Positions 3,455-23,947 of a stretch of DNA of 32,000 bases are shown in pieces (position 1 is the stretch's first letter; each line of letters starts with the position of its first letter). Below the pieces are notes generated by a model. That model did no database searches and was not told the DNA's origin. It saw nothing but the letters and a program-made list of their open reading frames with translations. A program made the position numbers and the translations under genes. This stretch comes from Dickeya dadantii NCPPB 898 (GTDB lineage: Bacteria; Pseudomonadota; Gammaproteobacteria; Enterobacterales; Enterobacteriaceae), in NCBI RefSeq assembly GCF_000406145.1, contig NZ_CM001976.1, positions 2,625,116-2,657,115 on the forward strand, given 5' to 3'.

Positions 3455-5428
3455 ATGAATACAATTCTGCATACCTATAACAATCTGAAGGTTGGTATTA
3501 AGCTAGCGATAGGGTTTGGACTGATTTTGATCATGTCCGCCTTCATCATGCTATCGGGAGTTAATGGTTTTCGTAATATTGACGCGTATGTCAATAAATC
3601 CATTATCAGTAATGATATTAATAATAACCTGAACGATGCCAGACGAGCCCGACTCAGTTTTCAGTATACCCATGACTACACCGCGATTAATAAAGTCGGC
3701 GACCTGATGGTAAAAGTCGGCCAGTCGCTGAATCAGGCCAACCAGTTGACCTGGAGCCCCGATGCGCAGAACTTACTGAATCAGCTCAATGACGCCTACA
3801 AAAAATATCTCCCCGGACGGGAAGCGCTGCTTAAAGCCAGTCAGCAGCGCGATGTCGTTGCGCAAAAACTGAATCAGGACAGCAGCGCCGACGTGCTCAA
3901 TACACTGCGTACTCAATTCAGCAACAATGCGATAGCGCCGGAATTACGGCTGGAATTTAGCACGCTGTTCGAACAACTGTCGGAAATTCGCGACCTGACG
4001 CATGAGTTGTTACTGCAACCGTCCCCTCAGGCCGAGTCCAATCTGCGCAAAGCCCTTGGCAACACTCAGACCGCATTCAATCAAGCCCTGCCCAAATTCA
4101 GCGCGGAGCAGCAAGGGTGGCTGAACCAGGCCTGGCGCTTTTTCTCCACCTACAACGGCTACATTGACGATTATATGAGCGCCTTCCGGGATGAAAACGC
4201 CGCCACCAGTACCATGACCGGCGCGGCGACCATTCTGGATAACGCCTCCACCGATTTGTATGCAAGCCAACTGTCGCTGGTCAGCGCCACCACCACCAGC
4301 TCGCAGTGGCAGCTGTTGTTCACCGGTCTGGTGATTATCGCTATCGGGGTACTGATGGCCTGGCGCATCACCCTGCAAATTACCCGTCCGTTGCATCAGA
4401 GCCTGTCGCTGGCGGAACGGATTGCGCAAGGCGATCTGACCGCCTCGATTAACGTTACCCGCCGCGATGAGCTGGGGATGCTGATGTCCGCCATGGCGGC
4501 CATGAACCACAAACTGCGCGAGATGATCGGCGAAATCCGTGAGGGAGTGAGCAACGTGGCGTCCGCCGCGTCGGAAATCGCCGCCGGCAACACCGATCTC
4601 TCCTCCCGCACCGAGCAACAGTCGGCCGCGGTAGTAGAAACCGCCGCCAGCATGGAGCAATTGACCTCCACGGTGAAGCAGAACGCCGACAACGCACATC
4701 ACGCCTCGCAGCTGGCGGCCGATGCGTCAGGCAACGCCACCAAAGGCGGCGAGATCGTCACCAACGTGGTGAGCACCATGAACGAGATCGCCACCAGTTC
4801 CCGCCGCATTTCCGAAATCACCTCCGTCATTAACGGCATTGCCTTCCAGACCAACATTCTGGCGCTCAACGCCGCGGTGGAAGCGGCGCGCGCCGGCGAA
4901 CAGGGCCGTGGTTTCGCGGTAGTGGCCGGCGAGGTACGCAATCTGGCCCAGCGCAGCGCCCAGGCCGCCAAAGAGATCGAAACGCTGATCGGCGAGTCGG
5001 TCACCCGGGTGAACACCGGCTCCACGCTGGTGGAGAGCGCCGGTAAAACCATGGACGAGATTATCCGCTCCATCTCCCATGTGCATGACATCATGGACGA
5101 GATCGCGTCGGCCTCTGACGAGCAGAGCCGCGGCATCAACCAGATCTCCACCGCGGTCGCCGAAATGGACGCCACCACCCAGCAGAATGCCGCGCTGGTG
5201 GAAGAGTCTTCCGCGGCGGCCAATTCGCTGGAAGAGCAGGCGCAAACGCTGGAGCATGCGGTATCGGTGTTCCGTCTCGGTAACAACGAAGCGGCACCGC
5301 GCGCCAGCCTCAGCGCCGGCAAACCGCTGAAACTGACGACATCCGCCGCTAAAGCGACCTCGGCCGCCAAAACCACCGCATTGAGCCGCCCTGCGGCCAA
5401 CGGCAAAGATGACTGGGAGTCGTTCTAA
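3455..5428 (+). CDS. Methyl-accepting chemotaxis protein (large helical periplasmic sensor, HAMP, MA domain, C-terminal xWxxF pentapeptide)
   Basis: 657 aa. Layout: TM1 (about res 13-36), ~250-aa periplasmic region, TM2, HAMP, then the signalling domain with invariant hairpin ([46 protein letters not shown]). Ala/Ser/Pro-rich tail ends in DWESF (cf. NWETF of Tar/Tsr, the CheR/CheB tether). AGGAAG SD before the ATG. Confidence 0.93.
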
Positions 5429-5949: not shown

Positions 5950-7905
5950 ATGAAGACTGTTTTTGGCGCTTATAACAATTTCAGAGTCGGTGTGAAGCTG
6001 GCGATGGGATTCGGACTGATATTATTAATGGCGGCGATAATCATGCTGTCAGGGATCAATGGCTTTCAAAATATTGACGCGTACTCCCAAAAGTCCATTA
6101 TCAGCAATAATATTAACAGCTATCTGGAAGAAGCCCGGCGGGAGCGTCTGCGCTTCCAATATACCCACGATTATGCGGCTATTAATAAAAACGGCGAACT
6201 GCTGAATAAAATGACGCAATCGCTGAATGTCGCCCAGACAATGAAATGGGATGCGGACACCCGTATTCTGCTGGATAAGATTATCCAGTCCGGCAAGGAA
6301 TATAATGTCGCGCGGGAAAACCTGATCAGCGCCAGCCAAAAGCGGGACGCTATCGGTCAAAAACTGTCGCAGGATACCATCGGTAAAGTGATTGATACCC
6401 TGCGCGGACAATTCGATGCCGCCACGCTGCCGGCGGAATTACGGCTGGAGTTTATGTACATCAACGAGGGACTGTCGGATATCAAAGATACGGCCCATGA
6501 ACTGACGTTGATGCCCTCCGCCGAAACCGAAGCGGCGCTTCGCAAAGCGTTGAGTACCGCGCAACATGCCATCACGCAGGCGCTGTCAAAATACAGCGCG
6601 GAACAGCAGGCCTGGTTGAATCAGGCCTGGCAGCTTTTCGCCACCTACAACGGGGATATCACCCTTTACATGGCGGCCTATCAGGAAGAGAACGCGGCGT
6701 CTCAGCGCATGGCGGATATCGCGCTGGTTCTTAACCAGTCGGCGACCCAGCTCTACCAAACCCAGTTAGACAAGGTGGATAACATTACCCGCCAGTCGCA
6801 ATACGAACAGTGGATCATCGGGCTGGCGATTATCGCCCTCGGCGTGCTGATGGCCTGGCGCATCACCCTGCAACTTACCCGCCCGCTGCGTCAGAGCCTG
6901 TCGCTGGCGGAGCGGATCGCCCAGGGCGACCTGACCGCGTCCATCACCGTCACCCGTAAAGATGAGCTGGGCCAGTTGATGTCGGCGATGAATGCAATGA
7001 ACCACAAGCTGCGCGATATGATCGGCACTATCCGCGAAGGGGTGAACAACGTGGCGTCCGCCGCGTCGGAAATCGCCGCCGGCAACACCGATCTCTCCTC
7101 CCGCACCGAACAGCAGTCGGCCGCGGTGGTAGAAACCGCCGCCAGCATGGAACAACTGACCTCCACGGTGAAGCAGAACGCCGACAACGCGCATCACGCC
7201 TCGCAACTGGCGGCCGATGCGTCAGGCAACGCCACCAAAGGCGGCGAGATCGTCACCAACGTGGTGAGCACCATGAACGAGATCGCCACCAGTTCCCGCC
7301 GCATTTCCGAAATCACTTCCGTCATCAACGGCATCGCCTTCCAGACCAACATTCTGGCGCTCAACGCCGCGGTGGAAGCGGCGCGCGCCGGCGAACAGGG
7401 CCGTGGCTTCGCGGTAGTGGCCGGCGAGGTGCGCAATCTGGCTCAGCGCAGCGCCCAGGCCGCCAAAGAGATCGAAACGCTGATCGGCGAGTCGGTCATC
7501 CGGGTGAACACCGGCTCCACGCAGGTGGAAAGCGCCGGTAAAACCATGGCCGAGATCATCCGCTCCATCGCCCATGTGCATGACATTATGGGTGAAATCG
7601 CCTCTGCGTCCGACGAACAGAGCCGCGGCATCAACCAGATTTCCAACGCGATAGCCGAAATGGACGCCACCACCCAGCAGAACGCCGCGCTGGTGGAAGA
7701 ATCCTCCGCGGCGGCCAATTCGCTGGAAGAGCAGGCGCAGGCGCTGGAACAGGCTGTCTCGATATTCCGCCTCGGCCATGACGACAACCATCGCCCTACC
7801 CGCTCCGCGCACAAACCCGGCGCCGTCAGCGCTAAAAAACCGCTGATGCTGGCCGGCGCCGGAGCGGGCGCCCGCTCCGGCAACGACGAGTGGGAGTCGT
7901 TCTAA
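5950..7905 (+). CDS. Methyl-accepting chemotaxis protein, tandem paralogue of 3455-5428
   Basis: 651 aa, same architecture as the first MCP. Sensor region ~50% identical to the first MCP (by eye). The signalling domain is protein-identical for ~150 aa. Tail ends in EWESF. AGGAAGG SD before the ATG. Confidence 0.93.
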   Translation: MKTVFGAYNNFRVGVKLAMGFGLILLMAAIIMLSGINGFQNIDAYSQKSIISNNINSYLEEARRERLRFQYTHDYAAINKNGELLNKMTQSLNVAQTMKWDADTRILLDKIIQSGKEYNVARENLISASQKRDAIGQKLSQDTIGKVIDTLRGQFDAATLPAELRLEFMYINEGLSDIKDTAHELTLMPSAETEAALRKALSTAQHAITQALSKYSAEQQAWLNQAWQLFATYNGDITLYMAAYQEENAASQRMADIALVLNQSATQLYQTQLDKVDNITRQSQYEQWIIGLAIIALGVLMAWRITLQLTRPLRQSLSLAERIAQGDLTASITVTRKDELGQLMSAMNAMNHKLRDMIGTIREGVNNVASAASEIAAGNTDLSSRTEQQSAAVVETAASMEQLTSTVKQNADNAHHASQLAADASGNATKGGEIVTNVVSTMNEIATSSRRISEITSVINGIAFQTNILALNAAVEAARAGEQGRGFAVVAGEVRNLAQRSAQAAKEIETLIGESVIRVNTGSTQVESAGKTMAEIIRSIAHVHDIMGEIASASDEQSRGINQISNAIAEMDATTQQNAALVEESSAAANSLEEQAQALEQAVSIFRLGHDDNHRPTRSAHKPGAVSAKKPLMLAGAGAGARSGNDEWESF

Positions 7906-10884: not shown

Positions 10885-11556
10885 ATGCGTTATCAATGGG
10901 ATTTTTCCGCCCTGCCGCACTGGTGGCCGTTGCTGCTGGACGGGTTATGGGGAACAGTCCGCATCGGCTTTACCAGCATTCTCATCGGAATGCTGGTCGG
11001 CGCGCTGCTGGCCGCGATGAAACTGTCGTCCACCCGGCTGTTGCGCCTGCCCGCTCACCTGTTCATCGGTTTTTATCGCAACACGCCCGCTATCGTGCAT
11101 TTTTTCTGGATTTACTACGCGCTGCCGGTCCTCAGCCCGCTGACCCTGTCGCCGTTCGCCGCCGCGGTGACGGCCCTGTCGGCGCAGTCGGCCGCGTTTT
11201 ACGCCGAAGTCTACCGCGGCGGCATCCTGTCGATTGCCGAGGGTCAGTGGGAAGGCGCTAAAGCGCTCGGCATGTCGCGCCCGCTGGCGCTGCGACGGGT
11301 GATCCTGCCGCAGGCGTTGCGGCGCATGATCCCGCCGCTGATTGAACGCTCGTTCGAGCTGATTAAATCCACGTCGCTGGCATCGTCGCTGGCTTACGGC
11401 GAACTGTTGTATCAGGCGATGCAGATCAACAGCCAGAGCTTCCGCCCGCTGGAAGTCTACAGCCTGGCGGCGCTGCTCTATTTCACGCTGCTGTTTGTCC
11501 TTAGCCTGCTGAGTCAGTACGTCGAGCGGCGGCTGTCTTACGCCCGCGTACAGTGA
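10885..11556 (+). CDS. Amino-acid ABC transporter permease (His/Glu/Gln/Arg/opine family)
   Basis: The track ORF starts at 10852. I prefer ATG 10885 (MRYQWDF..., AGGGA SD upstream, parallels the MHYQWNF start of the next permease). Contains the EAA-loop region (GQWEGAKALGMSRPLALRRVILPQALRRMIPPL). Confidence 0.88.
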   Translation: MRYQWDFSALPHWWPLLLDGLWGTVRIGFTSILIGMLVGALLAAMKLSSTRLLRLPAHLFIGFYRNTPAIVHFFWIYYALPVLSPLTLSPFAAAVTALSAQSAAFYAEVYRGGILSIAEGQWEGAKALGMSRPLALRRVILPQALRRMIPPLIERSFELIKSTSLASSLAYGELLYQAMQINSQSFRPLEVYSLAALLYFTLLFVLSLLSQYVERRLSYARVQ

Positions 11557-11564
11557 GGTCGCCG

Positions 11565-12239
11565 ATGCACTATCAATGGAACTTTGGCTTTATCTGGCAA
11601 CAGTTGCCGGTCCTGCTGCGCGGGCTGGGCGTCACGCTGGAGCTGTGGCTGCTGGCAGGCATCGGCGGCACGCTGCTCGGTCTGGCGCTGGGCATCGCCC
11701 GCACCGCGCGCCGCCGCGCCGTCCGCCTGCCGGCGATGGCGTTCGTCGAGCTGTTTCGCAACACGCCGGTGCTAATCCAGTTGATCTGGTTTTATTACGC
11801 GCTGCCGGTGCTGCTCGGCATCCAGTTCAGCACCTTTGGCGCGGCGACGCTGGCGCTGACGCTCTACACCGCCGCCTATAGCACCGAAATCTTCCGCGCC
11901 GGTCTGCAGTCGATGGAGCAAGGCCAGTGGGAAGGCGCTAAAGCGCTCGGCATGTCTTACCCGCTGGCGTTGCGACGGGTGATCCTGCCGCAGGTGTTAC
12001 AGCGCATGTTGCCCGCGCTGACCAACCGCCTGATCGAGCTGGCCAAGGTCACCTCGCTGGCGTCGATGCTGGCGGTCAATGAACTGATGTATCAGGGGCG
12101 TCTGCTGAGCAGCGACACCTACCGCCCGCTGGAAATCCTCACCGTGGTGGCGCTGTTCTACTTCGTGCTGATTTGGCCCGGCAGTTATCTGGCCGCGCGG
12201 CTGGAGCGGCGCTGGCGCTCCCCTTTATCAACCCGGTAA
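11565..12239 (+). CDS. Amino-acid ABC transporter permease (second subunit)
   Basis: Paralogue of the preceding permease (GQWEGAKALGMSYPLALRRVILPQVLQRMLPAL). ATG 11565 is preceded by a GAGG SD. Alternative GTG 11553 overlaps the upstream stop. Confidence 0.88.
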   Translation: MHYQWNFGFIWQQLPVLLRGLGVTLELWLLAGIGGTLLGLALGIARTARRRAVRLPAMAFVELFRNTPVLIQLIWFYYALPVLLGIQFSTFGAATLALTLYTAAYSTEIFRAGLQSMEQGQWEGAKALGMSYPLALRRVILPQVLQRMLPALTNRLIELAKVTSLASMLAVNELMYQGRLLSSDTYRPLEILTVVALFYFVLIWPGSYLAARLERRWRSPLSTR

Positions 12240-14936: not shown

Positions 14937-16115
14937 TTAGACCTTCACTGCTTTAGCGCTTAACCCAACCAGCGCCAGCAACACCGCCACCACCAGAAAC
15001 GCAGCCGACAGGCTGCTGTGGTGCGCAATAAACCCGATGCTCGCCGGGCCGGCCAATACCCCGAAATAACCCAGCGTCGTCACCGCCGGCACCGCGGCCG
15101 CCTGCGACATGCTGGTCTGGCGGCCAATGGCGGAGAACATGATCGGCACGATATTGGAACACCCCAGCCCGATCAGCGCATAACCGAGCAACGCTACCGG
15201 CCAGAACGGCACCCACACCGCCAGCATCAGACCGGCGACCGCCAGCGACGCCCCCAGCATCACCATCGGCTGCGGCCCCAGAGCCGTCACCACCCGGTCC
15301 CCGGTCAGGCGACCGAGCGTCATGGCGGCGGCAAAACACGCAAAACCGAGCGCGCCTTGCGCGTCCGGCATCCCGCGGTGCTCGGTCAGGAACACTGCGC
15401 TCCAGTCCAGCACCGTGCCTTCGGCCAGAAACACGGCAAAACAGACCAGGCCCAGCACCAGCACCGCGCCGCGGGGAATGGCGAACGCCGGGCCTTCCGG
15501 CGGATTGGCGTAGGTCAGCAGGCCGGCCAGATGCGTCAGCAATAACACCACCGCCACCAGTACGCTAAGCAGGCTGGCCGCCAGCGGCGACAGCCCCAGC
15601 GACATCATGCCGCTCATTGCTCCGGCGCCAACGATGCCGCCGATGCTGTAAAAGCCGTGAAACCCCGACATCATGGCTTTGCCCGCCGCCTTTTCCACCA
15701 GAATCGCCTGCACGTTCATGGCGCAGTCGGTAGTGCCGACCCCGATGCCGAACACCAGCAGCGCGATCGCCAGCAAAACGGTATCCGGAATCACCGCCAG
15801 CCACGGCAGTATCAGGCAGAACAGCAGCACCGCCAGCGCGATGACTTTACGGCAGCCAAAACGGGTGGTCAGCATCCCGGTGACCGGCATCGCCACCAGC
15901 GCGCCGCCGCCCAGACACAGCAATAGCAGACCAAGCGTACCGTCATCGACGCCGGTATTGAGCTTGGCGAAAGGCACCAGCGCCGCCCATACCGCGGTGG
16001 CGAACCCGGCCAGAAAAAACATCACGCGCGTCGCCCGTTGTTCGCGTCGTCCGGGTTCGTCGCTTACGCGCGCAGATAAAGGGGAGTTGTTCTGGGAATC
16101 CGTTAACTGTTGCAT
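14937..16115 (-). CDS. MFS transporter (YbjJ-like)
   Basis: About 12 hydrophobic segments. Central ...MNVQAILVEKAAGKAMMSGFHGFYSIGGIVGAG resembles E. coli YbjJ. The start is uncertain: ATG 16115 (MQQLTDSQ...) is chosen, and the track start 16175 is a GTG. Neither has a strong SD. Confidence 0.8.
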   Translation of the reverse strand: MQQLTDSQNNSPLSARVSDEPGRREQRATRVMFFLAGFATAVWAALVPFAKLNTGVDDGTLGLLLLCLGGGALVAMPVTGMLTTRFGCRKVIALAVLLFCLILPWLAVIPDTVLLAIALLVFGIGVGTTDCAMNVQAILVEKAAGKAMMSGFHGFYSIGGIVGAGAMSGMMSLGLSPLAASLLSVLVAVVLLLTHLAGLLTYANPPEGPAFAIPRGAVLVLGLVCFAVFLAEGTVLDWSAVFLTEHRGMPDAQGALGFACFAAAMTLGRLTGDRVVTALGPQPMVMLGASLAVAGLMLAVWVPFWPVALLGYALIGLGCSNIVPIMFSAIGRQTSMSQAAAVPAVTTLGYFGVLAGPASIGFIAHHSSLSAAFLVVAVLLALVGLSAKAVKV

Positions 16116-16192
16116 AAAACGATACTGTCTCGTGTGAAAGGAATTGACCAATAACCGCAGCGGCGCGCGGCGCACATCAACGATCCATAAAA

Positions 16193-16984
16193 CTACCCAT
16201 TAAGAACCCGCAGCACCTCTTGATGCAAACGCGGACACCCCGTCGCCAGAATCTGTCCGCCCGCTTCCGGCCGTTCGCCTTGTAGCGTAGTCACCACGCC
16301 GCCCGCCTGCTCGACAATCGGGATAAACGCGGCGATGTCATAGGGTTGCAGCGAATATTCCAGACAGATATCAATGTGCCCGGCGGCCAGCATCGCCATC
16401 GCGTAGCATTCGCCGCCGTAGCGGGTCATCAGCGTGCGCTCGGTGAGGTCATGAAAACGGATCTGTGGATGGCGTTCAATCGGCTCCGGCGAGGTGGTAT
16501 GCAAAATGGCCTGCTCAAGCGGTACATTTTTACGGCTCTCGATGCGGCTTTCTCCCTGCGGGCCTCGATACCAGGCATGCCGTCCATCGGCCCAAAACGC
16601 CTCGCCGGTGAACGGCTGGCTCATCATGCCCATTACGGCGCGGCCCTGGTATAACAGCCCGATCAGCGTGCCCCACACCGGTAGCCCGCACAAAAACGGC
16701 CGGGTGCCGTCGACCGGGTCAAGAATCCACTGGATATCGCCGCTACCGGTCGCGCCGAACTCCTCACCCAAAATCGCGTGCTCCGGGTAGCGTTCGGTAA
16801 TCAACGCCCGAATCGCCCGCTCCGCTTCCCGGTCGGCATCCGTCACCGGATCGAAGCGAAACCCCTCTTTCGGCTTGCTGCCGACATGCAGATTCTGGTG
16901 CGAGCGAAAACGCGGCAGGGTTTGCTGGCTGGCCGCGTCGGCCAGGGTATGAAAAAACGCGATATCCGGCAGTGATTGACGCAT
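16193..16984 (-). CDS. Inositol-monophosphatase-family phosphatase (HisN/SuhB-like)
   Basis: Metal-binding motifs AILGEEFG and WILDPVDGTRPF, and C-terminal YDIAAFIPIVEQAGG. ATG 16984 (MRQSLPD...) is preceded by a GAGGTG SD. The track ORF extends to 17044 without support. Confidence 0.85.
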   Translation of the reverse strand: MRQSLPDIAFFHTLADAASQQTLPRFRSHQNLHVGSKPKEGFRFDPVTDADREAERAIRALITERYPEHAILGEEFGATGSGDIQWILDPVDGTRPFLCGLPVWGTLIGLLYQGRAVMGMMSQPFTGEAFWADGRHAWYRGPQGESRIESRKNVPLEQAILHTTSPEPIERHPQIRFHDLTERTLMTRYGGECYAMAMLAAGHIDICLEYSLQPYDIAAFIPIVEQAGGVVTTLQGERPEAGGQILATGCPRLHQEVLRVLNG

Positions 16985-17051
16985 GGTATTCACCTCTTGG
17001 GATAAAATGCACATCAACAATAGTGGATTGACAAATCGAGTCACAGCGATT

Positions 17052-17111
17052 GATTATGCTCGTTATGCTCGATTTATTTTAAATATAAGGACTGGTTATG
17101 CTCGATTATGC
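17052..17111. promoter_or_regulatory. Reiterated TTATGCTCG / GATTATGC motif in the divergent promoter region (candidate DeoR-type operator)
   Basis: TTATGCTCG at 17054-17062, 17063-17071 and 17096-17104. The last copy contains the deoR-family start codon ATG 17098. ATTATGC occurs again at 17105-17111. Confidence 0.35.
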
Positions 17112-17877
17112 ATCTTTTCCTGAGCAGCGACAATCCCTGATCCGGGATCGGCTGCGCAAGGATGGTCGGGTAGTCTGTACATTGCTGTCACAAGAATTGC
17201 AGGTTTCGGAACACACCATCCGGCGCGACCTGCAGGAACTGGCGCGCGAAGGCGTGTGCAAGCGGGTATACGGCGGCGCGGTCAGCCTGGCTCCTGCTGA
17301 CGGTCACTTCATCACCCGCGCCGCCGCCGACAGCGAGGCCAAAGATCGGCTGGGCCGCGCCTGCGCGGCGCTGGTTCAGGCGGGTCAGTGCATCTTTATC
17401 GATTCCGGCTCCACCAATCTGGCTATCGCCCGGGCGATTCCGACCTCGCTATCCGTGACCGTGGTGACCAACTCCCCCGCTATCGCGCTGGAAATGATGA
17501 AATCATCCCATGCGGAGGTGATCATGCTCGGCGGGCGGGTGCAATCGCGCACCGGCGGCGCGCTCGGTATCACACCGCAGAAACAGCTGGAGAGCATCTA
17601 TTTCGATCTCTGCTTTCTGGGCGGCTGCGCGCTGGACGCCACCGAAGGACTGACCGTGTTCGACTACGAAGACGCGGAATTCAAGCGGGCGGCGGCGCGC
17701 AACAGCAATGAGATCGTGGTGGCGATGACGTCGGACAAGCTCCCGGCGATCGCCCGCTACCATGTCATCCCCTGCGAAGACATCACCACCCTGGTGGTGG
17801 AACAGGCGATCCCGACGGATAAACTCGCGCCTTTTATCGACAAAAAGATGTCTATCCGTTTTGCCGATGCACAATAA
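17098..17877 (+). CDS. DeoR/GlpR-family transcriptional regulator
   Basis: 259 aa. N-terminal wHTH (ERQSLIRDRLRKDGRVVCTLLSQELQVSEHTIRRDLQELAREG) plus a C-terminal sugar-phosphate sensor domain (IFIDSGSTN...). Divergent from the phosphatase-MFS-phosphatase operon. Confidence 0.9.
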   Translation: MLDYASFPEQRQSLIRDRLRKDGRVVCTLLSQELQVSEHTIRRDLQELAREGVCKRVYGGAVSLAPADGHFITRAAADSEAKDRLGRACAALVQAGQCIFIDSGSTNLAIARAIPTSLSVTVVTNSPAIALEMMKSSHAEVIMLGGRVQSRTGGALGITPQKQLESIYFDLCFLGGCALDATEGLTVFDYEDAEFKRAAARNSNEIVVAMTSDKLPAIARYHVIPCEDITTLVVEQAIPTDKLAPFIDKKMSIRFADAQ

Positions 17878-17902
17878 GTCAGCCCTTATGCCGCATGTGT
17901 TG

Positions 17903-17924
17903 CCCGTCCCGGTTCGTGGACGGG
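17903..17924 (+). terminator. Small GC hairpin after the DeoR-family gene (weak terminator candidate)
   Basis: CCCGTCC / GGACGGG 7-bp stem with an 8-nt loop, 26 nt after the stop. The following tract (TATCGCTTCGTCATTT) is only moderately T-rich. Confidence 0.35.
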
Positions 17925-17925
17925 T

Positions 17926-18560
17926 ATCGCTTCGTCATTTCGCTGGCAGCCGGATGACAACATCTGTTTCACGCTGCTGACCGCTTTCCAGTTTTATCCT
18001 TATACCGGTTTTTACGTCTGGCTGCCGCGTCAGGTTACGGTTTACTCTTTCCTCGACCGCCAATTGCAATTAGCTTATGCTATTCATTGTTGTTTTACTT
18101 TTGTTTTTCCATTAACAATATTGCGGGTAATCGTAATGATGGTGGGCTACAAGGCGCCGAGCTTGCGTTTAGCGTCTCCTGTTCGCGTGCGACAGAACCT
18201 GCGTTACTTGCAGTTGTTAACGCATTTCCGTGGCGTCTGGCGGGTGGGGCATTTCCGTATCGCTGCCGTATGTGGTGGATCGCGCATCACCGTTGATCTC
18301 ATCAACGTTAACGCCTGAGCGGCTTTCTCGTCGGTAAGTGCGTGGCGTGCCGCGCCGACGTTTTCGGCCGCACGCATCGTCAGCGGTACCATGACTGACA
18401 CGGCATTTGGGCGGATTCCCTCTGTCGGTGTAACTGTCGTGACCCGTGAAGAGATGCAAACCGGGGTTTATGTGCAGGATCAGGCGTAGTGGACTCGGTG
18501 GACTGGTGACGCTGGGCGGTTGTTACGACCGGGCGAAAACCTCGGCAGCTGAATCGCCTC
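17926..18560 (+). repeat. Decayed, collinear, same-frame copy of fhuA internal segment 18936-19633, also carrying FhuA N-terminal-like motifs
   Basis: Shared ordered blocks include GCTGGCAGCCGGATGA, TATACCGGTTTTTACG.CTGGCTGCCGCGTCAGG, GATGGTGGGCTAC, GTGCGACAGAACCTGCGTTAC, ATCGCTGCCGTATGTG.TGGATCGCGCATC, CAAACCGGGGTTTAT.TGCAGGATCAGGCG and GTTACGACCGGGCGAAAACCTCGGC. Offsets are 1011, 1008 and 1074 nt. See the first finding. Confidence 0.8.
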
Positions 18561-20385
18561 TGACGTGGTTCACCTGCGCGGTTTCACCGCGGTCAACACC
18601 AATCAGTACCTCGACGGCCTGAAATTGCAGGGCGACAACTATTCGGAAGCATCGCTGGACCCTTACATGCTGGAGCGGGTGGAGGTGCTGCGCGGCCCGG
18701 TGTCGGTGCTGTATGGCAAAAGCAGCCCGGGCGGCCTGGTCGCGCTGGTCAGCAAACGGCCGACGGCGGAAACCATCCGCGAAGTCCAGTTCAAGATGGG
18801 AACCGATAATCTGTTTCAGACCGGCTTCGACTTCGGCGGCGCCGTTGATGATCAAGGCGTGTATACCTACCGCCTGACCGGGGTGGCGAAAAGCAGCGAT
18901 ACTCAGCAGGATCTCGCTAAAGAGAAGCGTTACGCCATCGCTCCGTCATTTAGCTGGCAGCCGGATGAAAACACCCGCTTCACGCTGCTGACCGATTTCC
19001 AGAACGATCCGTATACCGGTTTTTACGGCTGGCTGCCGCGTCAGGGCACGGTTAACCCGTTCCTCGACGCCAACGGCAATCAGCATAAGCTATCCACGTC
19101 GTTTAACGATGGCGAAGCCAGCAACAAGATGGCGCGTAACCAGAAGATGGTGGGCTACAGCGCCGAGCATGCGTTTAACGACACCTGGACCGTGCGACAG
19201 AACCTGCGTTACATGCAGTTGGAAACGCAATACCGTGGCATCTACGGCTCGGGCATTTCCGCATCGCTGCCGTATGTGATGGATCGCGCATCCGTTATCT
19301 CTCACGAACGACTGAACAGCTTTACCGTCGATAATCAGGCGCAGGCGACGTTTTCAACCGCCGATGTCAGCCATACCATGCTGTTTGGCGTGGATTACAT
19401 GCGCATGCGCAACGATATCGACGAATATTTTGGTTCGGCATCCTCGCTGAACCTGCTGAATCCGGCTTACGGTGACGACAGCATTCCGGCGGATTCCCTC
19501 TCTCCCTGGAACTTCCTCAACCGTCAGGAGCAAACCGGGGTTTATATGCAGGATCAGGCGCAGTGGAATCAGTGGCTGGTGACGCTGGGCGGACGTTACG
19601 ACCGGGCGAAAACCTCGGCGCAGAATCGCACCTCCGGAACCACCGACGCCAACAGCCAGGGTCAGTTCACCTGGCGAGGTGGGGTGAACTACCTGTTTGA
19701 CAACGGTATCACGCCGTACTTCAGTTACAGCGAATCGTTTGAACCTACCTCAGGCGCCAGCGCCAGCGGCCAGACCTTCAAACCGTCGCTCGGCAAGCAG
19801 TATGAAGCCGGGGTGAAATACGTACCGAAGGATCGCCCGTTGGTGTTGACGGCGGCGGTCTATTCGCTGACCAAGAGCAACAACCTGACCACCGACCCCG
19901 ACAACACCAACTTCAGCGTCCAGAGCGGTGAAATCACGGTGCGTGGGCTGGAACTGGAAGCCAAGAGCGCGCTGACGCAGAACATTAACGTGACGGCGGC
20001 CTATTCGCATGTCAATGCCAAATACACCCACGACACCGACTTGCAAGGTAAACGTCCGTACCAGATTCCCAACAATCAGGCCTCGCTGTGGGCGGATTAC
20101 ACCTTTAACCGTTCAGTGCTCAGCGGGCTGACCATCGGTTCCGGCGTGCGTTATGTCGGTAGTTCCTACGGCGATGCAAACAATACTTTTAAGGTTGCGC
20201 CTTACGGATTGCTGGACGCGATGGTGAAATACGATCTGGCGGCATTCGGTATGCCCGGCTCCAGCCTGGCCGTCAATGTCGATAACTTGCTCAATCGGCA
20301 GTACGTCGCCAGCTGTTATACCGATTACGCCTGCTACTGGGGCAGCGAGCGTCGCGTTACCGCTACGGCGACATTCCGATTCTGA
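18337..20385 (+). pseudogene. fhuA: FhuA-type TonB-dependent ferrichrome/siderophore outer-membrane receptor, 5'-disrupted
   Basis: From 18562 (DVVHLRGF...) to the C-terminal ...RVTATATFRF the frame is intact and collinear with E. coli/Salmonella FhuA (DPYMLERVEVLRGPVSVLYGKSSPGG, QFTWRGGVNYLFDNGITPYFSYSESFEP). Upstream in the same frame is a remnant (SAW...GTMTDT...VVTREEM), cut by TAG 18487-18489 and TGA 18550-18552. There is no start codon, signal peptide or clean TonB box. Confidence 0.85.
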
Positions 20386-20402
20386 TTAATCGGCATTTCA
20401 GT

Positions 20403-20430
20403 GATGGTCGCGGCCAATGCCGCGACCATC
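20403..20430. terminator. Perfect 12-bp hairpin between convergent fhuA and lipoprotein genes
   Basis: GATGGTCGCGGC-caat-GCCGCGACCATC. No clear U-tract on either strand, so terminator function is not certain. Confidence 0.45.
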
Positions 20431-20488
20431 GATGCCAATATCGTTTAAACATCAGTCATATCAGGCGGCAACCCGGCAGGTAATGGCA

Positions 20489-21391
20489 TTACTTTTTCGC
20501 CACCGCGTCTTTAACGTCTTTCATTTCATTCAGCAACGCGGTTAAAACGGCGGTATCCGTTGACTGGCTATTCTTTTCGGTAACAACCGACACACCGCAC
20601 TGCGAATGAGTAGTTACTTTCCCTTTCACCGGTAAAGCAACAGCCTGCAAATACCGTGGGTCATTCACTCTTACATAAACAGTCTCTTCAACTGCCCCTG
20701 CCTTTTTTACCTTAATGACACCATCTCTGCAGGCAGCATAGATAAAGTGGTGCTTAATTTTATCCAGATTCTCCGGCAACGATGGCACAACCCAGTCGGC
20801 AGAAATGGCATCGACGGGCACACTCCCCAATGCTATTTCTGCACTATAACCATCAGATAAATCAATAGATTTGTTATTCTCATTTAATATTTTTTCGTCA
20901 ATGTCTACTGTTTTGGTTTCGACTATTTTAGTCTGAACGGTTTTATTCTTATTCGTAGAAAAGAGAGTCATTGGTATAAGTTTAGTCACTGCAATCGCCA
21001 ATGCACCAAACTCTTTAACAGCCTTTTCTCTGTTATCCTCTGTATCAACTCCAATTTCTTTCACTCTATCTGTATTTTCAATTTTGGACATACTAATGTT
21101 TGTTTTGGTGAACAGGCTTTCTTTAGGAGAAATACCCACTTTGAATTTCTTGTAATCATGATTTAATACTGTGACCTTATATTTTAAAGCGCCATTTTCG
21201 CCATTGGATTTTTTTTCATATTCAGGCTCAAAAATCACCGAGGATGATGCCAGATAAAAGCTGTCGGATATTTTTTTATCCAGCAGTTTTTCGCCTGCCG
21301 GCTTATCACCCTGAATGATTTGATACGACACTTCCGGTTTTACTGCACAGCCCGACATCAGCATCATTGATACGATAATGTACTTTTTCAT
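20489..21391 (-). CDS. Orphan lipoprotein of unknown function, on an AT-rich islet
   Basis: 300 aa. Lipoprotein signal MKKYIIVSMMLMSGC (lipobox L-M-S-G-C). Lys/Glu/Asn-rich, with no motif I recognise. The gene and flanks (about 20440-21720) are visibly much more AT-rich than neighbours. Confidence 0.75.
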   Translation of the reverse strand: MKKYIIVSMMLMSGCAVKPEVSYQIIQGDKPAGEKLLDKKISDSFYLASSSVIFEPEYEKKSNGENGALKYKVTVLNHDYKKFKVGISPKESLFTKTNISMSKIENTDRVKEIGVDTEDNREKAVKEFGALAIAVTKLIPMTLFSTNKNKTVQTKIVETKTVDIDEKILNENNKSIDLSDGYSAEIALGSVPVDAISADWVVPSLPENLDKIKHHFIYAACRDGVIKVKKAGAVEETVYVRVNDPRYLQAVALPVKGKVTTHSQCGVSVVTEKNSQSTDTAVLTALLNEMKDVKDAVAKK

Positions 21392-21742
21392 ATTGCCCTC
21401 GCCCAGATATGATTAGTTTTATAAAAAATAATGAATCCGTTTTTTCAAGAAAGGAAAATAAAGCACAACGAATATCGCCATCATGGCGCATTATAAAATA
21501 ATGGAAAATACAGGGAGTTCTTTAAGAATGACGCAATAAACCAACAATGCAAGTTGCCTGCATTCACTATTTCTTTAAAAGCATTAATCGCATGATTTTT
21601 ATTGTTATTATTTTTAATAACAGTAGGATTAATATCCTCAATAATAAATATTCAACAGAGAGAAAATTACCGGATGGATTATTTTACGCCGCATTGAATC
21701 AGAAACAACGTCAGTAGATTAATGCAATCGCACCGCCGCTAT

Positions 21743-21780
21743 AACAAACAACAACGCCCCTGCCGATTCCGACAAGGGCG
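21743..21780 (-). terminator. Rho-independent terminator of the minus-strand ABC permease operon
   Basis: Minus strand reads CGCCCTTG-tcggaatcgg-CAGGGGCG (7 of 8 pairs) followed by TTGTTGTTTGTT. Starts 44 nt after stop 21824. Confidence 0.6.
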
Positions 21781-21823
21781 CTTAACAGACGAGCCAGCGA
21801 CTGACATCAATCCACAATCAGGA

Positions 21824-22660
21824 TCAACGCCCGCCGCGCAGTTTCTCCGAACGGCGGCGCAGCACCTCCATCACCACCAGCAGCACCAGCGCGGCGGCCA
21901 CCATCATGGTCGCCGCGGCGGCGATGGTCGGGTCGAGGTTTTCACGGATCCCGGCGAACATCTGCAACGGCAGCGTGCGCTGACGCGGACTGGCCAGAAA
22001 CAGCGTGACGATCACTTCATCAAACGAGGTAGCGAAGGCAAACAGCGCGCCGGAGAATACGCCGGGAGCGATCAGCGGCAACGTCACCTTACGAAACGCC
22101 AGCAGCGGCGGCGCGCCCAGACTGGCGGCGGCGCGGGTCAGGTTCTGATCGTAATTCTTCAGCACCGCGGTGACGGTAATCACCACAAACGGCACGCCCA
22201 GCACCGCATGGGCCAGCACCAGCCCGATGTAGCTGTTCAACAGCGACAGCTTGGCGAAAAAGAAGAACATCCCGACCGCCACGATCACCACTGGGGCGAT
22301 CATCGGCGAAATCAGCACCGCCATCACCAGCGATTTACCGCGAAACTCGCCGCGCACCAGCCCGACCGACGCCAGCACGCCCAGTACGGTTGCCAGCACC
22401 GTCGCCAGCGGCGCAATCAGCAGGCTGTTGCCGAGCGCGCTCAGCCATTCGCTGGAGTGGAAAAATTCCCGATACCAGCGCAGGGAAAACCCGGCCAGCG
22501 GGTAGCTGAGAAACGAGCCGCCGTTGAACGACAGCGGCACAATCACCAGCACCGGCACGATCAGAAACAGCAGCATCGCCGCGCCGTAAAAATTGAAGAA
22601 GCCGTTCCACACCCGCAGCAGCTGCGAACCCTGTTGTCTCATTTCCTTCATCGGTTTCAT
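21824..22660 (-). CDS. Spermidine/putrescine-type ABC transporter permease (PotC/PotI/YdcV-like)
   Basis: 278 aa, 6 TM segments. EAA-loop region (LTRAAASLGAPPLLAFRKVTLPLIAPG) and SFDEVIVTLFL. AAGGAG SD 6 nt upstream of ATG 22660. Confidence 0.9.
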   Translation of the reverse strand: MKPMKEMRQQGSQLLRVWNGFFNFYGAAMLLFLIVPVLVIVPLSFNGGSFLSYPLAGFSLRWYREFFHSSEWLSALGNSLLIAPLATVLATVLGVLASVGLVRGEFRGKSLVMAVLISPMIAPVVIVAVGMFFFFAKLSLLNSYIGLVLAHAVLGVPFVVITVTAVLKNYDQNLTRAAASLGAPPLLAFRKVTLPLIAPGVFSGALFAFATSFDEVIVTLFLASPRQRTLPLQMFAGIRENLDPTIAAAATMMVAAALVLLVVMEVLRRRSEKLRGGR

Positions 22661-22675
22661 CGCTTGCTCCTTCGG

Positions 22676-23947
22676 TTAACGCGCCGCCGCGTCGGCGTCG
22701 GTGCGGGTGACTCGGATATACACCACATACAGCAGCACCACGATCACCAGCAGTTGTGTCCCCAGCGCCGCCGCCATTCCCCAGTTCATGGTGGTGTTGG
22801 TGAAGAACGCCACAAAATAGCTGAGCATCTGATCGCCCGGCCCGCCTAGCAGCGCCGGCGTAATGTAGTAGCCAATCGCCATCATGAACACCAACAGCGC
22901 GCCGGCGGTCACTCCGGCGTAGGTCTGCGGCACATACACTCGCCAGAACGCCAGAAACGGATGCGCGCCCAGCGAAATCGCCGCCCGCACATAGTTGGGT
23001 GAAATGCCTTTCATCACCGCATACAGCGGCAACACGAAGAACGGCAACAGAATGTGGGTCATGGAGATGTAGACGCCGATACGGTTAAACACCAGCACCA
23101 GCGGCTCATCAATGATGCCCAGCCCCATCAGCGAACGGTTGATCAACCCGCCGGACTGCAGCAGTACGATCCAACTGGCGGTACGCACAATCAGTGAGGT
23201 CCAGAATGGCAGTAACACCAAAATCATCAGCAGGTTGGCGCGATTATCCGGCTGTTTCGCCAGCCAGTAAGCCAGCGGGTAGCCCAGCGCCACACACAGC
23301 AGCGTTACCACCCCCGCCATCAGCAGCGTGCGCAACAGTACATCAACATACAACGCCTGATCCGCCGGTTGCGCCACCACCTTGTCGGTCTGCGGGTCCA
23401 CCTTGTGGTCGAAGACCGACAGCAGGTAGTAACTGGTAAAAGGCCGCGACGCGCGGTCGATGGTTTTCCAGGTGGTCAGTTCGCCCCACATTGGCTGGTC
23501 GGCAATCAGTTGCTCGCGCAGCCCCGGCTGTTCATCCGACGGCAATTTACGCAGCGTACGGGTGATAAGCTGGCGATACTGGCCGTCTTCATAACCCAAC
23601 CGTTTGGTGATGGTGGCGACCTGCCCGGTACTGCGGGCATTGCGCAGATCGCTCACCAGCGCCCGAAACACGCTTTCATCCGGCACACCTTTGCCGGACC
23701 ATTGCCGCATCGCCTCGATAGTAGTCGGCATGCTGACGCGCAGGTCCGGGTTGGACACGCTTTTGCCCAGAATCGACAGTATCGGGAACAGGAAACTGAC
23801 CAGAATGAACAGGAACAACGGCGCTATCAGTAACAGCGACCGTTTCTGATAGCGGGCCTGCGCCTGACGCAGTTGCTGTTTCAGACTGGTGCGATTCCCC
23901 TCGCCGCCGGCGGGCGGCTCTGCCTTCAACATCTCATTCTGGGACAT
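22676..23947 (-). CDS. Spermidine/putrescine-type ABC transporter permease (PotB/PotH/YdcU-like) with an enlarged first extracytoplasmic loop
   Basis: 423 aa. Core matches PotB-type permeases (YVRAAISLGAHPFLAFWRVYVPQTYAG). About 140 extra residues lie between TM1 and TM2 relative to ~300-aa PotB/YdcU. AAGGAGAG SD. Confidence 0.88.
   Translation of the reverse strand: MSQNEMLKAEPPAGGEGNRTSLKQQLRQAQARYQKRSLLLIAPLFLFILVSFLFPILSILGKSVSNPDLRVSMPTTIEAMRQWSGKGVPDESVFRALVSDLRNARSTGQVATITKRLGYEDGQYRQLITRTLRKLPSDEQPGLREQLIADQPMWGELTTWKTIDRASRPFTSYYLLSVFDHKVDPQTDKVVAQPADQALYVDVLLRTLLMAGVVTLLCVALGYPLAYWLAKQPDNRANLLMILVLLPFWTSLIVRTASWIVLLQSGGLINRSLMGLGIIDEPLVLVFNRIGVYISMTHILLPFFVLPLYAVMKGISPNYVRAAISLGAHPFLAFWRVYVPQTYAGVTAGALLVFMMAIGYYITPALLGGPGDQMLSYFVAFFTNTTMNWGMAAALGTQLLVIVVLLYVVYIRVTRTDADAAAR

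What the first reader, a model, noticed from the sequence alone, without database searches (positions are those of the whole stretch)
17878..19675. fhuA 5' end is a mosaic: a decayed in-frame echo of its own barrel that still reads like the authentic FhuA N-terminus
(1) ORF 18565-20385 is collinear with FhuA from the plug (DVVHLRGF..YLDGLKLQG..DPYMLERVEVLRGPVSVLYGKSSPGG) to ...ATATFRF, but has no start, signal peptide or TonB box. (2) The ~635 bp between the DeoR-family stop and that ORF (17926-18560) is a collinear copy of barrel segment 18936-19633 in the same reading frame. Identity is roughly 70-85% in the good blocks, with offsets of 1011 nt at 17942, 1008 nt at 18139 and 1074 nt at 18457. 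The 9-mer GTTCACCTG occurs at the junction (18568-18576) and just beyond the source segment (19665-19673), as expected for a microhomology-mediated tandem duplication. (3) Frame 1 of this same stretch, the frame of the main ORF, reads ..KAPSLRLA..IAAV(5 aa)ITV..SAWRAAPTFSAARIVSGTMTDTAFGRIPSVGVTVVTREEMQT. This matches the FhuA N-terminus as I recall it (..KHSLRKIA..AQAAVEPKEDTITV..ESAWGPAATIAARQSATGTKTDTPIQKVPQSISVVTAEEMAL) with near-identical spacing. (4) An AT-rich promoter-like patch with a Fur-box-like 19-mer (GCTTATGCTATTCATTGTT at 18073-18091, 13/19 to GATAATGATAATCATTATC) lies ~200 bp upstream of the TonB-box-like ITV. (5) Frame 1 is stop-free for 146 codons after the DeoR-family stop and is then broken only by TGA 18316, TAG 18487 and TGA 18550. 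Simple duplication plus decay does not explain the N-terminal motifs, and a simple 5'-decayed pseudogene does not explain the collinear barrel homology. Possible explanations are patchwork template switching (MMBIR-like) between the 5' end and a site ~1 kb downstream, recombination with a second fhuA allele, or an assembly/consensus artefact. FhuA is a phage (T1/T5/phi80) and colicin M/microcin receptor, so loss or remodelling of its 5' end could be selected.
Basis: partly seen in the sequence, partly recalled or inferred. Interest (0 to 1): 0.7.

Follow-up and report, generated by a model that had tools for sequence, protein, structure and literature searches.

The report
Assembly-merge artefact in fhuA 5' end
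The odd "mosaic" at the start of the fhuA iron-receptor gene is a software error in a 2013 draft genome, made when two assemblies were merged letter by letter; the real bacterium has an ordinary, intact gene.

Summary
Window 17926-18557 resembles barrel segment 18937-19629 (81-84% identity, E 1e-98 and 2e-43), and it also resembles the authentic fhuA promoter and N-terminus.

It is not biology. The window is Dickeya dadantii. A complete genome of the same strain (CP023467.1, DSM 18020) is 100% identical over 2,821 nt to the left and 4,814 nt to the right. It differs only in window 17927-18571, where it has a normal 573-nt 5' end and an intact 735-aa FhuA.

The 645-nt window version is reproduced exactly (0 errors in 729 positions) as a column-by-column merge of two sequences:
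- P1, the true 5' end.
- P2, the strain's own barrel bases, arranged as in the fhuA remnant of strain 3937.

At all 196 columns where P1 and P2 differ, the alphabetically higher letter is kept (T>G>C>A). A base always beats a gap.

[quoted passage not shown] So this is a consensus tie-break artefact. The stops, the "decayed duplication", the weak Fur box and the GTTCACCTG "microhomology" are all by-products of it. Interest is low, apart from a warning about these draft records.

The parts
17098..17877 (+). DeoR/GlpR-family regulator gene. Authentic and unaffected.
   Evidence: The translation equals P0145 (WP_038911298.1) exactly. The DNA is 100% identical to CP023467.1.
17878..17926 (+). Authentic start of the deoR-fhuA intergenic region. 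This is the last correct stretch before the corrupted segment.
   Evidence: It lies within the 2,821-nt left flank (15106-17926) that has 0 mismatches to L096 (CP023467.1).
17927..18571 (+). Corrupted segment: 645 nt in the draft against 573 nt in reality. It is a column-wise merge of P1 (the true promoter plus the first ~129 codons of fhuA) with P2 (barrel bases laid out as in the 3937 remnant). The alphabetically higher base is kept, and a base beats a gap.
   Evidence: All 120 mismatches and 72 gaps against CP023467.1 fall here. The model reproduces 17882-18610 with 0 violations, and the higher letter wins at 196 of 196 discordant columns. All 657 P1 bases and 665 of 667 P2 bases are used, whereas shuffled P1 gives 66-84 violations. 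Only the order A<C<G<T fits among the 24 possible orders.
17920..18396 (+). Part of the corrupted segment that is overlaid by barrel bases 18932-19383.
   Evidence: Traceback of the three-sequence alignment gives jumps 17920->18932 and 19382->19477. blastn gives 17926-18337 ~ 18937-19334.
18397..18571 (+). Part of the corrupted segment that is overlaid by barrel bases 19478-19652.
   Evidence: blastn gives 18396-18557 ~ 19473-19629. The jump coincides with the internal deletion of the 3937-type remnant, whose junction reads CCATGCTG|ACAGCATTCC.
18073..18091 (+). Corrupted copy of the real Fur box. The draft reads GCTTATGCTATTCATTGTT (13/19 to consensus). The true sequence is GATTATGATAATCATTGTT (16/19), starting 62 nt upstream of the ATG.
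   Evidence: alignments.
18137..18318 (+). Spurious 60-codon ORF. It begins at the authentic fhuA ATG and then reads merged sequence. It is annotated in the public record as a hypothetical protein.
   Evidence: P0135 (WP_152490684.1) is a 100% match. Its cluster has one member, on a single contig of 4,829,443 bp.
18572..20385 (+). Authentic remainder of fhuA, covering plug residues ~131 onward, the whole barrel and the stop codon.
   Evidence: 100% nucleotide identity to CP023467.1. The last 603 residues equal P0134 exactly. Pfam Plug and TonB_dep_Rec_b-barrel are recorded for P0134 and P0001.
18929..19383 (+). Barrel segment that survives as the first part of the fhuA remnant in strain 3937. 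It is the source of the first overlay.
   Evidence: L087, L093, L094 and L095 align to 18929-19383 at 97.1% with 0 gaps.
19478..19652 (+). Barrel segment that survives as the second part of the 3937-type remnant. It is the source of the second overlay.
   Evidence: The remnant ORF that spans the junction equals ADM98713.1 of D. dadantii 3937.

Best explanation

That draft was built by merging a de novo assembly with a reference-guided assembly on strain 3937. Strain 3937 has lost most of fhuA. It keeps only an internal barrel fragment directly after deoR, equal to window 18929-19383 plus 19478-19652.

The proposed chain of events is as follows:
1. The reference-guided contig carried the sequenced strain's own barrel reads in the place of the 3937 remnant.
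2. When the two assemblies were aligned, this ~630-nt fragment was laid against the first ~570 nt that follow deoR in the de novo contig. Those ~570 nt are the real promoter and N-terminal coding region. The rest of the gene was treated as one long insertion.
3. With one vote per assembly, every disagreement was a tie. The software resolved each tie by taking the alphabetically larger character, so T>G>C>A>gap.
4. The result is a T-rich, A-poor hybrid of intermediate length. It reads partly like both parents and contains accidental stop codons.

Shown: the two parents, the tie rule, the reference's architecture, and the intact gene in the same strain.
Inferred: which program did this, why its aligner placed the fragment there, and that the record is the NCPPB 898 draft.
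For: 1. Same-strain truth. CP023467.1 (DSM 18020, named in PMC7348025) matches the window with 0 mismatches over 15106-17926 and 18572-23385. It has a 573-nt normal 5' end and a 735-aa FhuA. Its 5' end has no similarity to its barrel (best E 0.5).
2. Exact reconstruction. The column-wise maximum of P1 (L096) and P2 (own barrel bases in 3937 layout) gives the window sequence with 0 violations in 729 positions. The higher letter wins at 196 of 196 discordant columns, and shuffled controls give 66-84 violations. The rule was first seen without assuming it: with T>G>C>A, the higher-ranked letter was kept at 180 of 194 discordant columns.
3. Only A<C<G<T works. It gives 4 violations, against at least 20 for each of the other 23 orders.
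4. P2 has the 3937 architecture, including its internal deletion. The remnant ORF equals ADM98713.1 of strain 3937 exactly, and sits next to ADM98712 (DeoR) and ADM98714.
5. P2 carries the sequenced strain's own SNPs, not 3937's. Using the L087/L088 remnant bases as P2 adds 8 violations, and no site favours them over the strain's own barrel. This is what reads mapped on a reference would give.
6. Method on record. [quoted passage not shown]
7. The bias toward higher letters is confined to this segment. Outside it, differences from relatives are balanced, for example 274 up and 262 down against L082.
8. The spurious ORF exists in only one public genome.
Against: - The merging program and its tie rule are not documented in the papers I read.
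- Two bases of P2 (the TT at the left junction of the remnant) are missing from the merge. This needs the extra, plausible assumption that the reference-guided contig was ragged at a junction that no read of this strain spans.
- I could not read the source record's header. Its identity as the NCPPB 898 draft rests on three things: identical DeoR and FhuA sequence, 7.6 kb of identical flanks, and a 2013-era UniParc identifier on a 4,829,443-bp contig.
- Raw reads were not available.
Confidence: 0.92

Rival explanations
1. A real tandem or segmental duplication of the barrel segment replaced the 5' end of fhuA, by microhomology-mediated or MMBIR-like template switching, and then decayed.
For: A collinear direct repeat with E 1e-98. 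A GTTCACCTG 9-mer near both ends. Natural deletion alleles with a barrel fragment directly after deoR exist in other strains.
Against: The same strain's complete genome has no second copy and has an intact gene. No base in the segment is private to it, so there is no decay. Every difference from the barrel copy equals the authentic 5' base, and the choice follows alphabetical order in 196 of 196 cases. The C that creates the 9-mer is itself an artefact base.
Confidence: 0.01
2. Recombination or gene conversion between an intact allele and a remnant-type allele, for example after horizontal transfer, produced a fine-scale natural mosaic through heteroduplex repair.
For: Both allele types circulate in D. 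dadantii. The left boundary of the mosaic coincides with the remnant's left junction.
Against: The two parents share no homology here, so no heteroduplex could form. Parental tracts are mostly 1-3 informative sites long. The barrel-type bases carry this strain's own SNPs, not those of any remnant allele. The alphabetical rule and the intact gene in the same strain also argue against it.
Confidence: 0.01
3. The artefact arose another way, for example from a mixed culture, mis-mapped reads or a polishing step, rather than from a two-assembly merge with a tie-break.
For: The merging software is undocumented. Forced alignment of heterologous reads between shared flanks can also blend sequences.
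Against: A read pile-up would be decided by depth and quality, not by alphabetical order with no exceptions. The flanks show no sign of a second strain. The second parent has exactly the layout of the stated reference, 3937, but the sample's own bases. That is the signature of a reference-guided contig.
Confidence: 0.06

Closest known systems
Consensus or merge errors in draft genomes (meta-assembly of de novo and reference-guided contigs; reference bias at structural differences)
   Same: The error sits exactly where the sample and the reference differ structurally (intact fhuA against the 3937 remnant). The flanks are perfect. An independent finished genome of the strain lacks it.
   Different: Usual merge errors are joins, collapses or reference-derived fills. 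Here two unrelated sequences were interleaved base by base under a deterministic alphabetical tie-break. The product mimics a diverged duplication at ~80% identity and passes as a pseudogene.
FhuA, the ferrichrome TonB-dependent outer-membrane transporter (Pfam Plug PF07715 plus TonB_dep_Rec_b-barrel PF00593)
   Same: 18572-20385 is authentic fhuA. The true gene of this strain encodes 735 aa with a signal peptide, a TonB-box region (DTINV) and a plug and barrel, and it has a Fur box upstream.
   Different: As written in the window, the gene has no usable 5' end. That is an error in the record and not a truncated receptor.
Natural fhuA deletion remnants in D. dadantii (strain 3937, ADM98713.1)
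   Same: The barrel-like parent of the mosaic has the remnant's exact layout: it starts at 18929, has an internal deletion of 19384-19477, and ends at 19652.
   Different: The window's strain does not carry the remnant. Only its layout was imported, through the reference-guided assembly, and the bases are the strain's own.

Membership tests
Assembly-merge (two-sequence consensus) artefact | Every base of the odd segment is explained by one of two identifiable parent sequences, with no private changes | tested here: met
   0 violations in 729 positions. All 657 P1 bases and 665 of 667 P2 bases are used.
Assembly-merge (two-sequence consensus) artefact | The choice between parents follows a non-biological deterministic rule | tested here: met
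   The alphabetically higher letter wins 196 of 196 times, and a base beats a gap. Only the order A<C<G<T fits among 24. The rule was seen without being assumed (180 of 194).
Assembly-merge (two-sequence consensus) artefact | An independent assembly of the same strain lacks the feature while the flanks are identical | tested here: met
   CP023467.1 has 0 mismatches in 2,821 + 4,814 nt of flank, and a 573-nt normal 5' end.
Assembly-merge (two-sequence consensus) artefact | One parent reflects the structure of the reference used for assembly | tested here: met
   P2's layout equals the 3937 remnant, including its internal deletion. 3937 (NC_014500) is the stated reference for the D. dadantii meta-assemblies.
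Assembly-merge (two-sequence consensus) artefact | Raw reads do not support the sequence | not testable with these tools
   No access to the 454 reads.
Tandem or segmental duplication followed by decay | Two copies are physically present in the genome | tested here: not met
   The complete genome of the strain has one barrel copy. Its 5' end shows no similarity to the barrel (best E 0.5).
Tandem or segmental duplication followed by decay | Differences between the copies are independent mutations | tested here: not met
   Every difference from the barrel equals the authentic 5' base or a gap column of the alignment.
FhuA / TonB-dependent transporter | Plug and 22-strand barrel domains (PF07715, PF00593) | tested here: met
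   Precomputed Pfam hits exist for P0001 and P0134. The window ORF is identical to the last 603 residues of P0134.
FhuA / TonB-dependent transporter | Signal peptide, TonB box and Fur-regulated promoter at the 5' end | tested here: inconclusive
   Present in the true sequence: MITTQ...AYA/DDTITTDTINV and a 16/19 Fur box starting 62 nt upstream. In the window they are scrambled by the merge, with three stop codons. Function was not tested.

The most novel reading that the evidence does not exclude
The hybrid 645-nt sequence was physically present in the culture sequenced in 2013, as a laboratory variant of the type strain in which the fhuA 5' end had been rewritten. The perfect alphabetical rule would then be a coincidence. 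A more modest reading, which really is supported, concerns other strains: fhuA is a presence/absence polymorphism in D. dadantii, and the model strain 3937 keeps only a twice-deleted barrel fragment.
Probability: 0.01. Interest if true: 0.8.

Novelty: not a real feature. Interest (0 to 1): 0.08.

Why it matters
Biologically it does not matter. The type strain of D. dadantii has a normal, Fur-regulated fhuA.

Practically it is a useful warning:
- A public draft, with a RefSeq protein derived from it (WP_152490684.1), contains a fabricated sequence that looks like a diverged internal duplication and a truncated phage and siderophore receptor.
- The same merging step was used for other Dickeya drafts of 2013: NCPPB 3537, 569, 3274, 516, 3533, 2511, 3532, MK10 and MK16.
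- Similar hybrids may therefore sit wherever a sample carries sequence that its reference has deleted.
- The signature is easy to screen for: a T-rich, A-poor patch in which all differences from relatives go toward the alphabetically higher letter.

Tried and rejected
- Decay of a duplicate: rejected, because there are no private substitutions.
- An L086/L088-type remnant as donor of the barrel-like bases: rejected. The SNPs are the strain's own, and the layout needs the internal deletion of the 3937 type.
- Sanger-style double-peak overlay: considered, but not compatible because the two parents are out of register with indels (reasoning).
- Long-read polishing of a mixed culture, or forced read alignment: considered. 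It is not compatible with a tie rule that has no exceptions, nor with the clean flanks.
- A synthetic or model-generated window: rejected. Flanking genes differ from relatives mostly at synonymous sites, and the ORF is in RefSeq.
- Exact-product look-ups for the window's DeoR, the 606-aa ORF, the 84-aa ORF, the 300-aa ORF and P0135 found nothing. The same-strain genome was reached only through P0134.
- AT-skew outliers at 1.5-1.8 kb and 10.9-11.7 kb lie in ORFs and were not pursued. The second overlaps a pair of adjacent paralogues, and 11.9-32 kb showed no other biased window.
- One script call was an empty no-op.

Full report
**What is in the window.** The deoR-family gene ends at 17877, and a long ORF (18565-20385) matches FhuA from the plug onward. 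The 635 bp in between is a collinear direct copy of barrel DNA about 1 kb downstream. The matches are 17926-18337 ~ 18937-19334 (80.6%, E 1e-98) and 18396-18557 ~ 19473-19629 (84%, E 2e-43). Frame 1 is open for 146 codons and is then broken by three stops.

**Relatives.** The closest species-representative locus is Dickeya undicola (L001). It has an intact receptor and no internal repeat. Protein search gave D. dadantii FhuA (P0001, 735 aa, 98%). Look-ups then brought in many D. dadantii loci (L081-L095). Aligning the window's 5' segment (W5) to six intact alleles showed that W5 is also truly homologous to the authentic promoter (Fur box, Shine-Dalgarno site, ATG) and to the N-terminal coding region. 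W5 therefore resembles two unrelated sequences at once.

**The rule.** I aligned W5 separately to an intact 5' end and to the barrel, without assuming any rule. Of 635 positions, 337 agreed with both parents, 182 with the barrel only and 111 with the 5' end only. Just 5 agreed with neither single parent.
- Where the two parents differ, the base kept follows a fixed order: T beats A 32:0, T beats C 41:2, T beats G 26:3, G beats A 37:3, G beats C 22:3, and C beats A 22:3.
- This is alphabetical order. It also explains why W5 is A-poor and T-rich (106 A and 186 T, against 156 A and 148 T in the barrel).
- In a three-sequence dynamic programme run under all 24 possible orders, A<C<G<T gave 4 violations and every other order gave 20-98.

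**The second parent.** Several D. dadantii genomes have lost most of fhuA. L086 and L088 keep only a fragment equal to window 18929-19652, directly after deoR. L087, L093, L094 and L095 keep the same fragment with a further internal deletion of 19384-19477.
- The barrel-like parent of W5 has exactly the second layout. The alignment traceback jumps 17920->18932 and 19382->19477.
- The ORF that spans that internal junction is, residue for residue, ADM98713.1 'Ferrichrome-iron receptor [Dickeya dadantii 3937]'. It lies between the 3937 DeoR regulator (ADM98712) and ADM98714.
- The bases of this parent are the window strain's own barrel alleles, not those of the remnant-bearing strains. Using the L087/L088 remnant sequences as this parent adds 8 violations, and no site favours them.
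- Sample bases in a reference layout is what a reference-guided assembly produces.

**The source record and its method.** The 60-codon ORF at 18137-18318 is WP_152490684.1. It is found in a single D. dadantii record, on a 4,829,443-bp contig, with a 2013-era UniParc number. [quoted passage not shown] The companion paper gives no further detail on the merging.

**The truth for this strain.** The window's DeoR protein equals P0145 exactly. The 603 C-terminal residues of its FhuA ORF equal P0134, a 735-aa FhuA encoded on CP023467.1. PMC7348025 names that record as D. dadantii DSM 18020. From my own knowledge, DSM 18020 is the type strain and the same strain as NCPPB 898.
- The fetched locus L096 matches the window with zero mismatches over 15106-17926 and 18572-23385.
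- All 120 mismatches and 72 gaps lie in 17927-18571, where the finished genome has 573 nt instead of 645.
- In the finished genome, the 5' end has no similarity to the barrel (best E 0.5).
- The true gene has a signal peptide, a DTINV TonB-box region and a 16/19 Fur box starting 62 nt upstream of the ATG.

**Exact reconstruction.** P1 is the true 5' end from L096. P2 is window 17882-17918 + 18929-19383 + 19478-19652. The column-wise alphabetical maximum of the two, with a base beating a gap, reproduces window 17882-18610 with no violation in 729 positions.
- At all 196 columns where the parents differ, the higher letter is present.
- All 657 P1 bases and 665 of 667 P2 bases appear.
- Shuffling the inside of P1 gives 66-84 violations.
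- The only imperfection is the absence of two T's at the remnant's left junction. No read of this strain spans that junction.

**Scope.** Outside W5, differences from relatives show no directional bias (for example 274 up and 262 down against L082), and no other 300-nt window between 11.9 and 32 kb is biased. Flanking genes differ from relatives mainly at synonymous sites and without indels. The region downstream of fhuA is clean. The first ~11 kb of the window could not be compared with a close relative.

**Interpretation.**
- The stops at 18316, 18487 and 18550, the 'weak' Fur box, the AT-rich patch and the C in GTTCACCTG are all products of the tie-break.
- The strain has an ordinary intact fhuA.
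- It remains inferred that the merging aligner laid the ~630-nt reference-guided fragment against the first bases after the shared deoR flank and opened a single long gap for the rest of the gene. It is also inferred that the record is the NCPPB 898 draft.

**Verdict.** It is not a real feature of the organism, so interest is low apart from data-quality implications.

Noticed in passing
L086, L088 and L087, L093-L095 compared with window 18929-19652 and 20430; repeat pair 19639-19654 / 20425-20440: There is a real polymorphism at this locus. Many D. dadantii genomes, including the model strain 3937 (ADM98713.1), have lost fhuA except for a 724-bp internal barrel fragment. The 3937 type has a further 94-nt internal deletion. 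The right deletion junction lies in a 16-nt imperfect direct repeat (ACCACCGACGCCAACA / ACCATCGATGCCAATA). Other strains keep an intact gene. This could reflect loss of a phage or bacteriocin receptor.
   Followed up: partly
window 20489-21391 (- strand): The 300-aa hypothetical ORF next to fhuA is much more variable between D. dadantii strains than its flanks (77-93% nucleotide identity against 97-99%). Against L082, L084 and L086, non-synonymous differences are at least as many as synonymous ones; against L081, synonymous ones predominate (26 to 14). The ORF is absent from D. undicola L001.
   Followed up: no
L083 12272-14477 and L085 3638-5844 (Logan contigs): In two run-level assemblies, fhuA is split into 556 + 131/180-aa pieces. 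These could be real frameshifts or assembly errors; this was not resolved.
   Followed up: no
window 3476-5280 vs 5971-7775, and 11076-11490 vs 11756-12170: Two other diverged direct repeats (77.7% and 72%) lie within intact adjacent ORFs (657/651 aa, and two neighbouring ORFs of 234 and 228 aa). They look like ordinary tandem paralogues. The second pair lies partly outside the region checked for the letter-order bias, and the first pair lies wholly outside it.
   Followed up: partly
window 17878-18300 compared with 18565-20385, against L081/L086 and L082: The strain's true sequence changes affinity across the fhuA 5' end. deoR and the intergenic region are closest to L081/L086-type strains, while the fhuA body is closest to L082-type (98.4-99%). 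This is consistent with an old natural recombination breakpoint near the start of the gene.
   Followed up: partly
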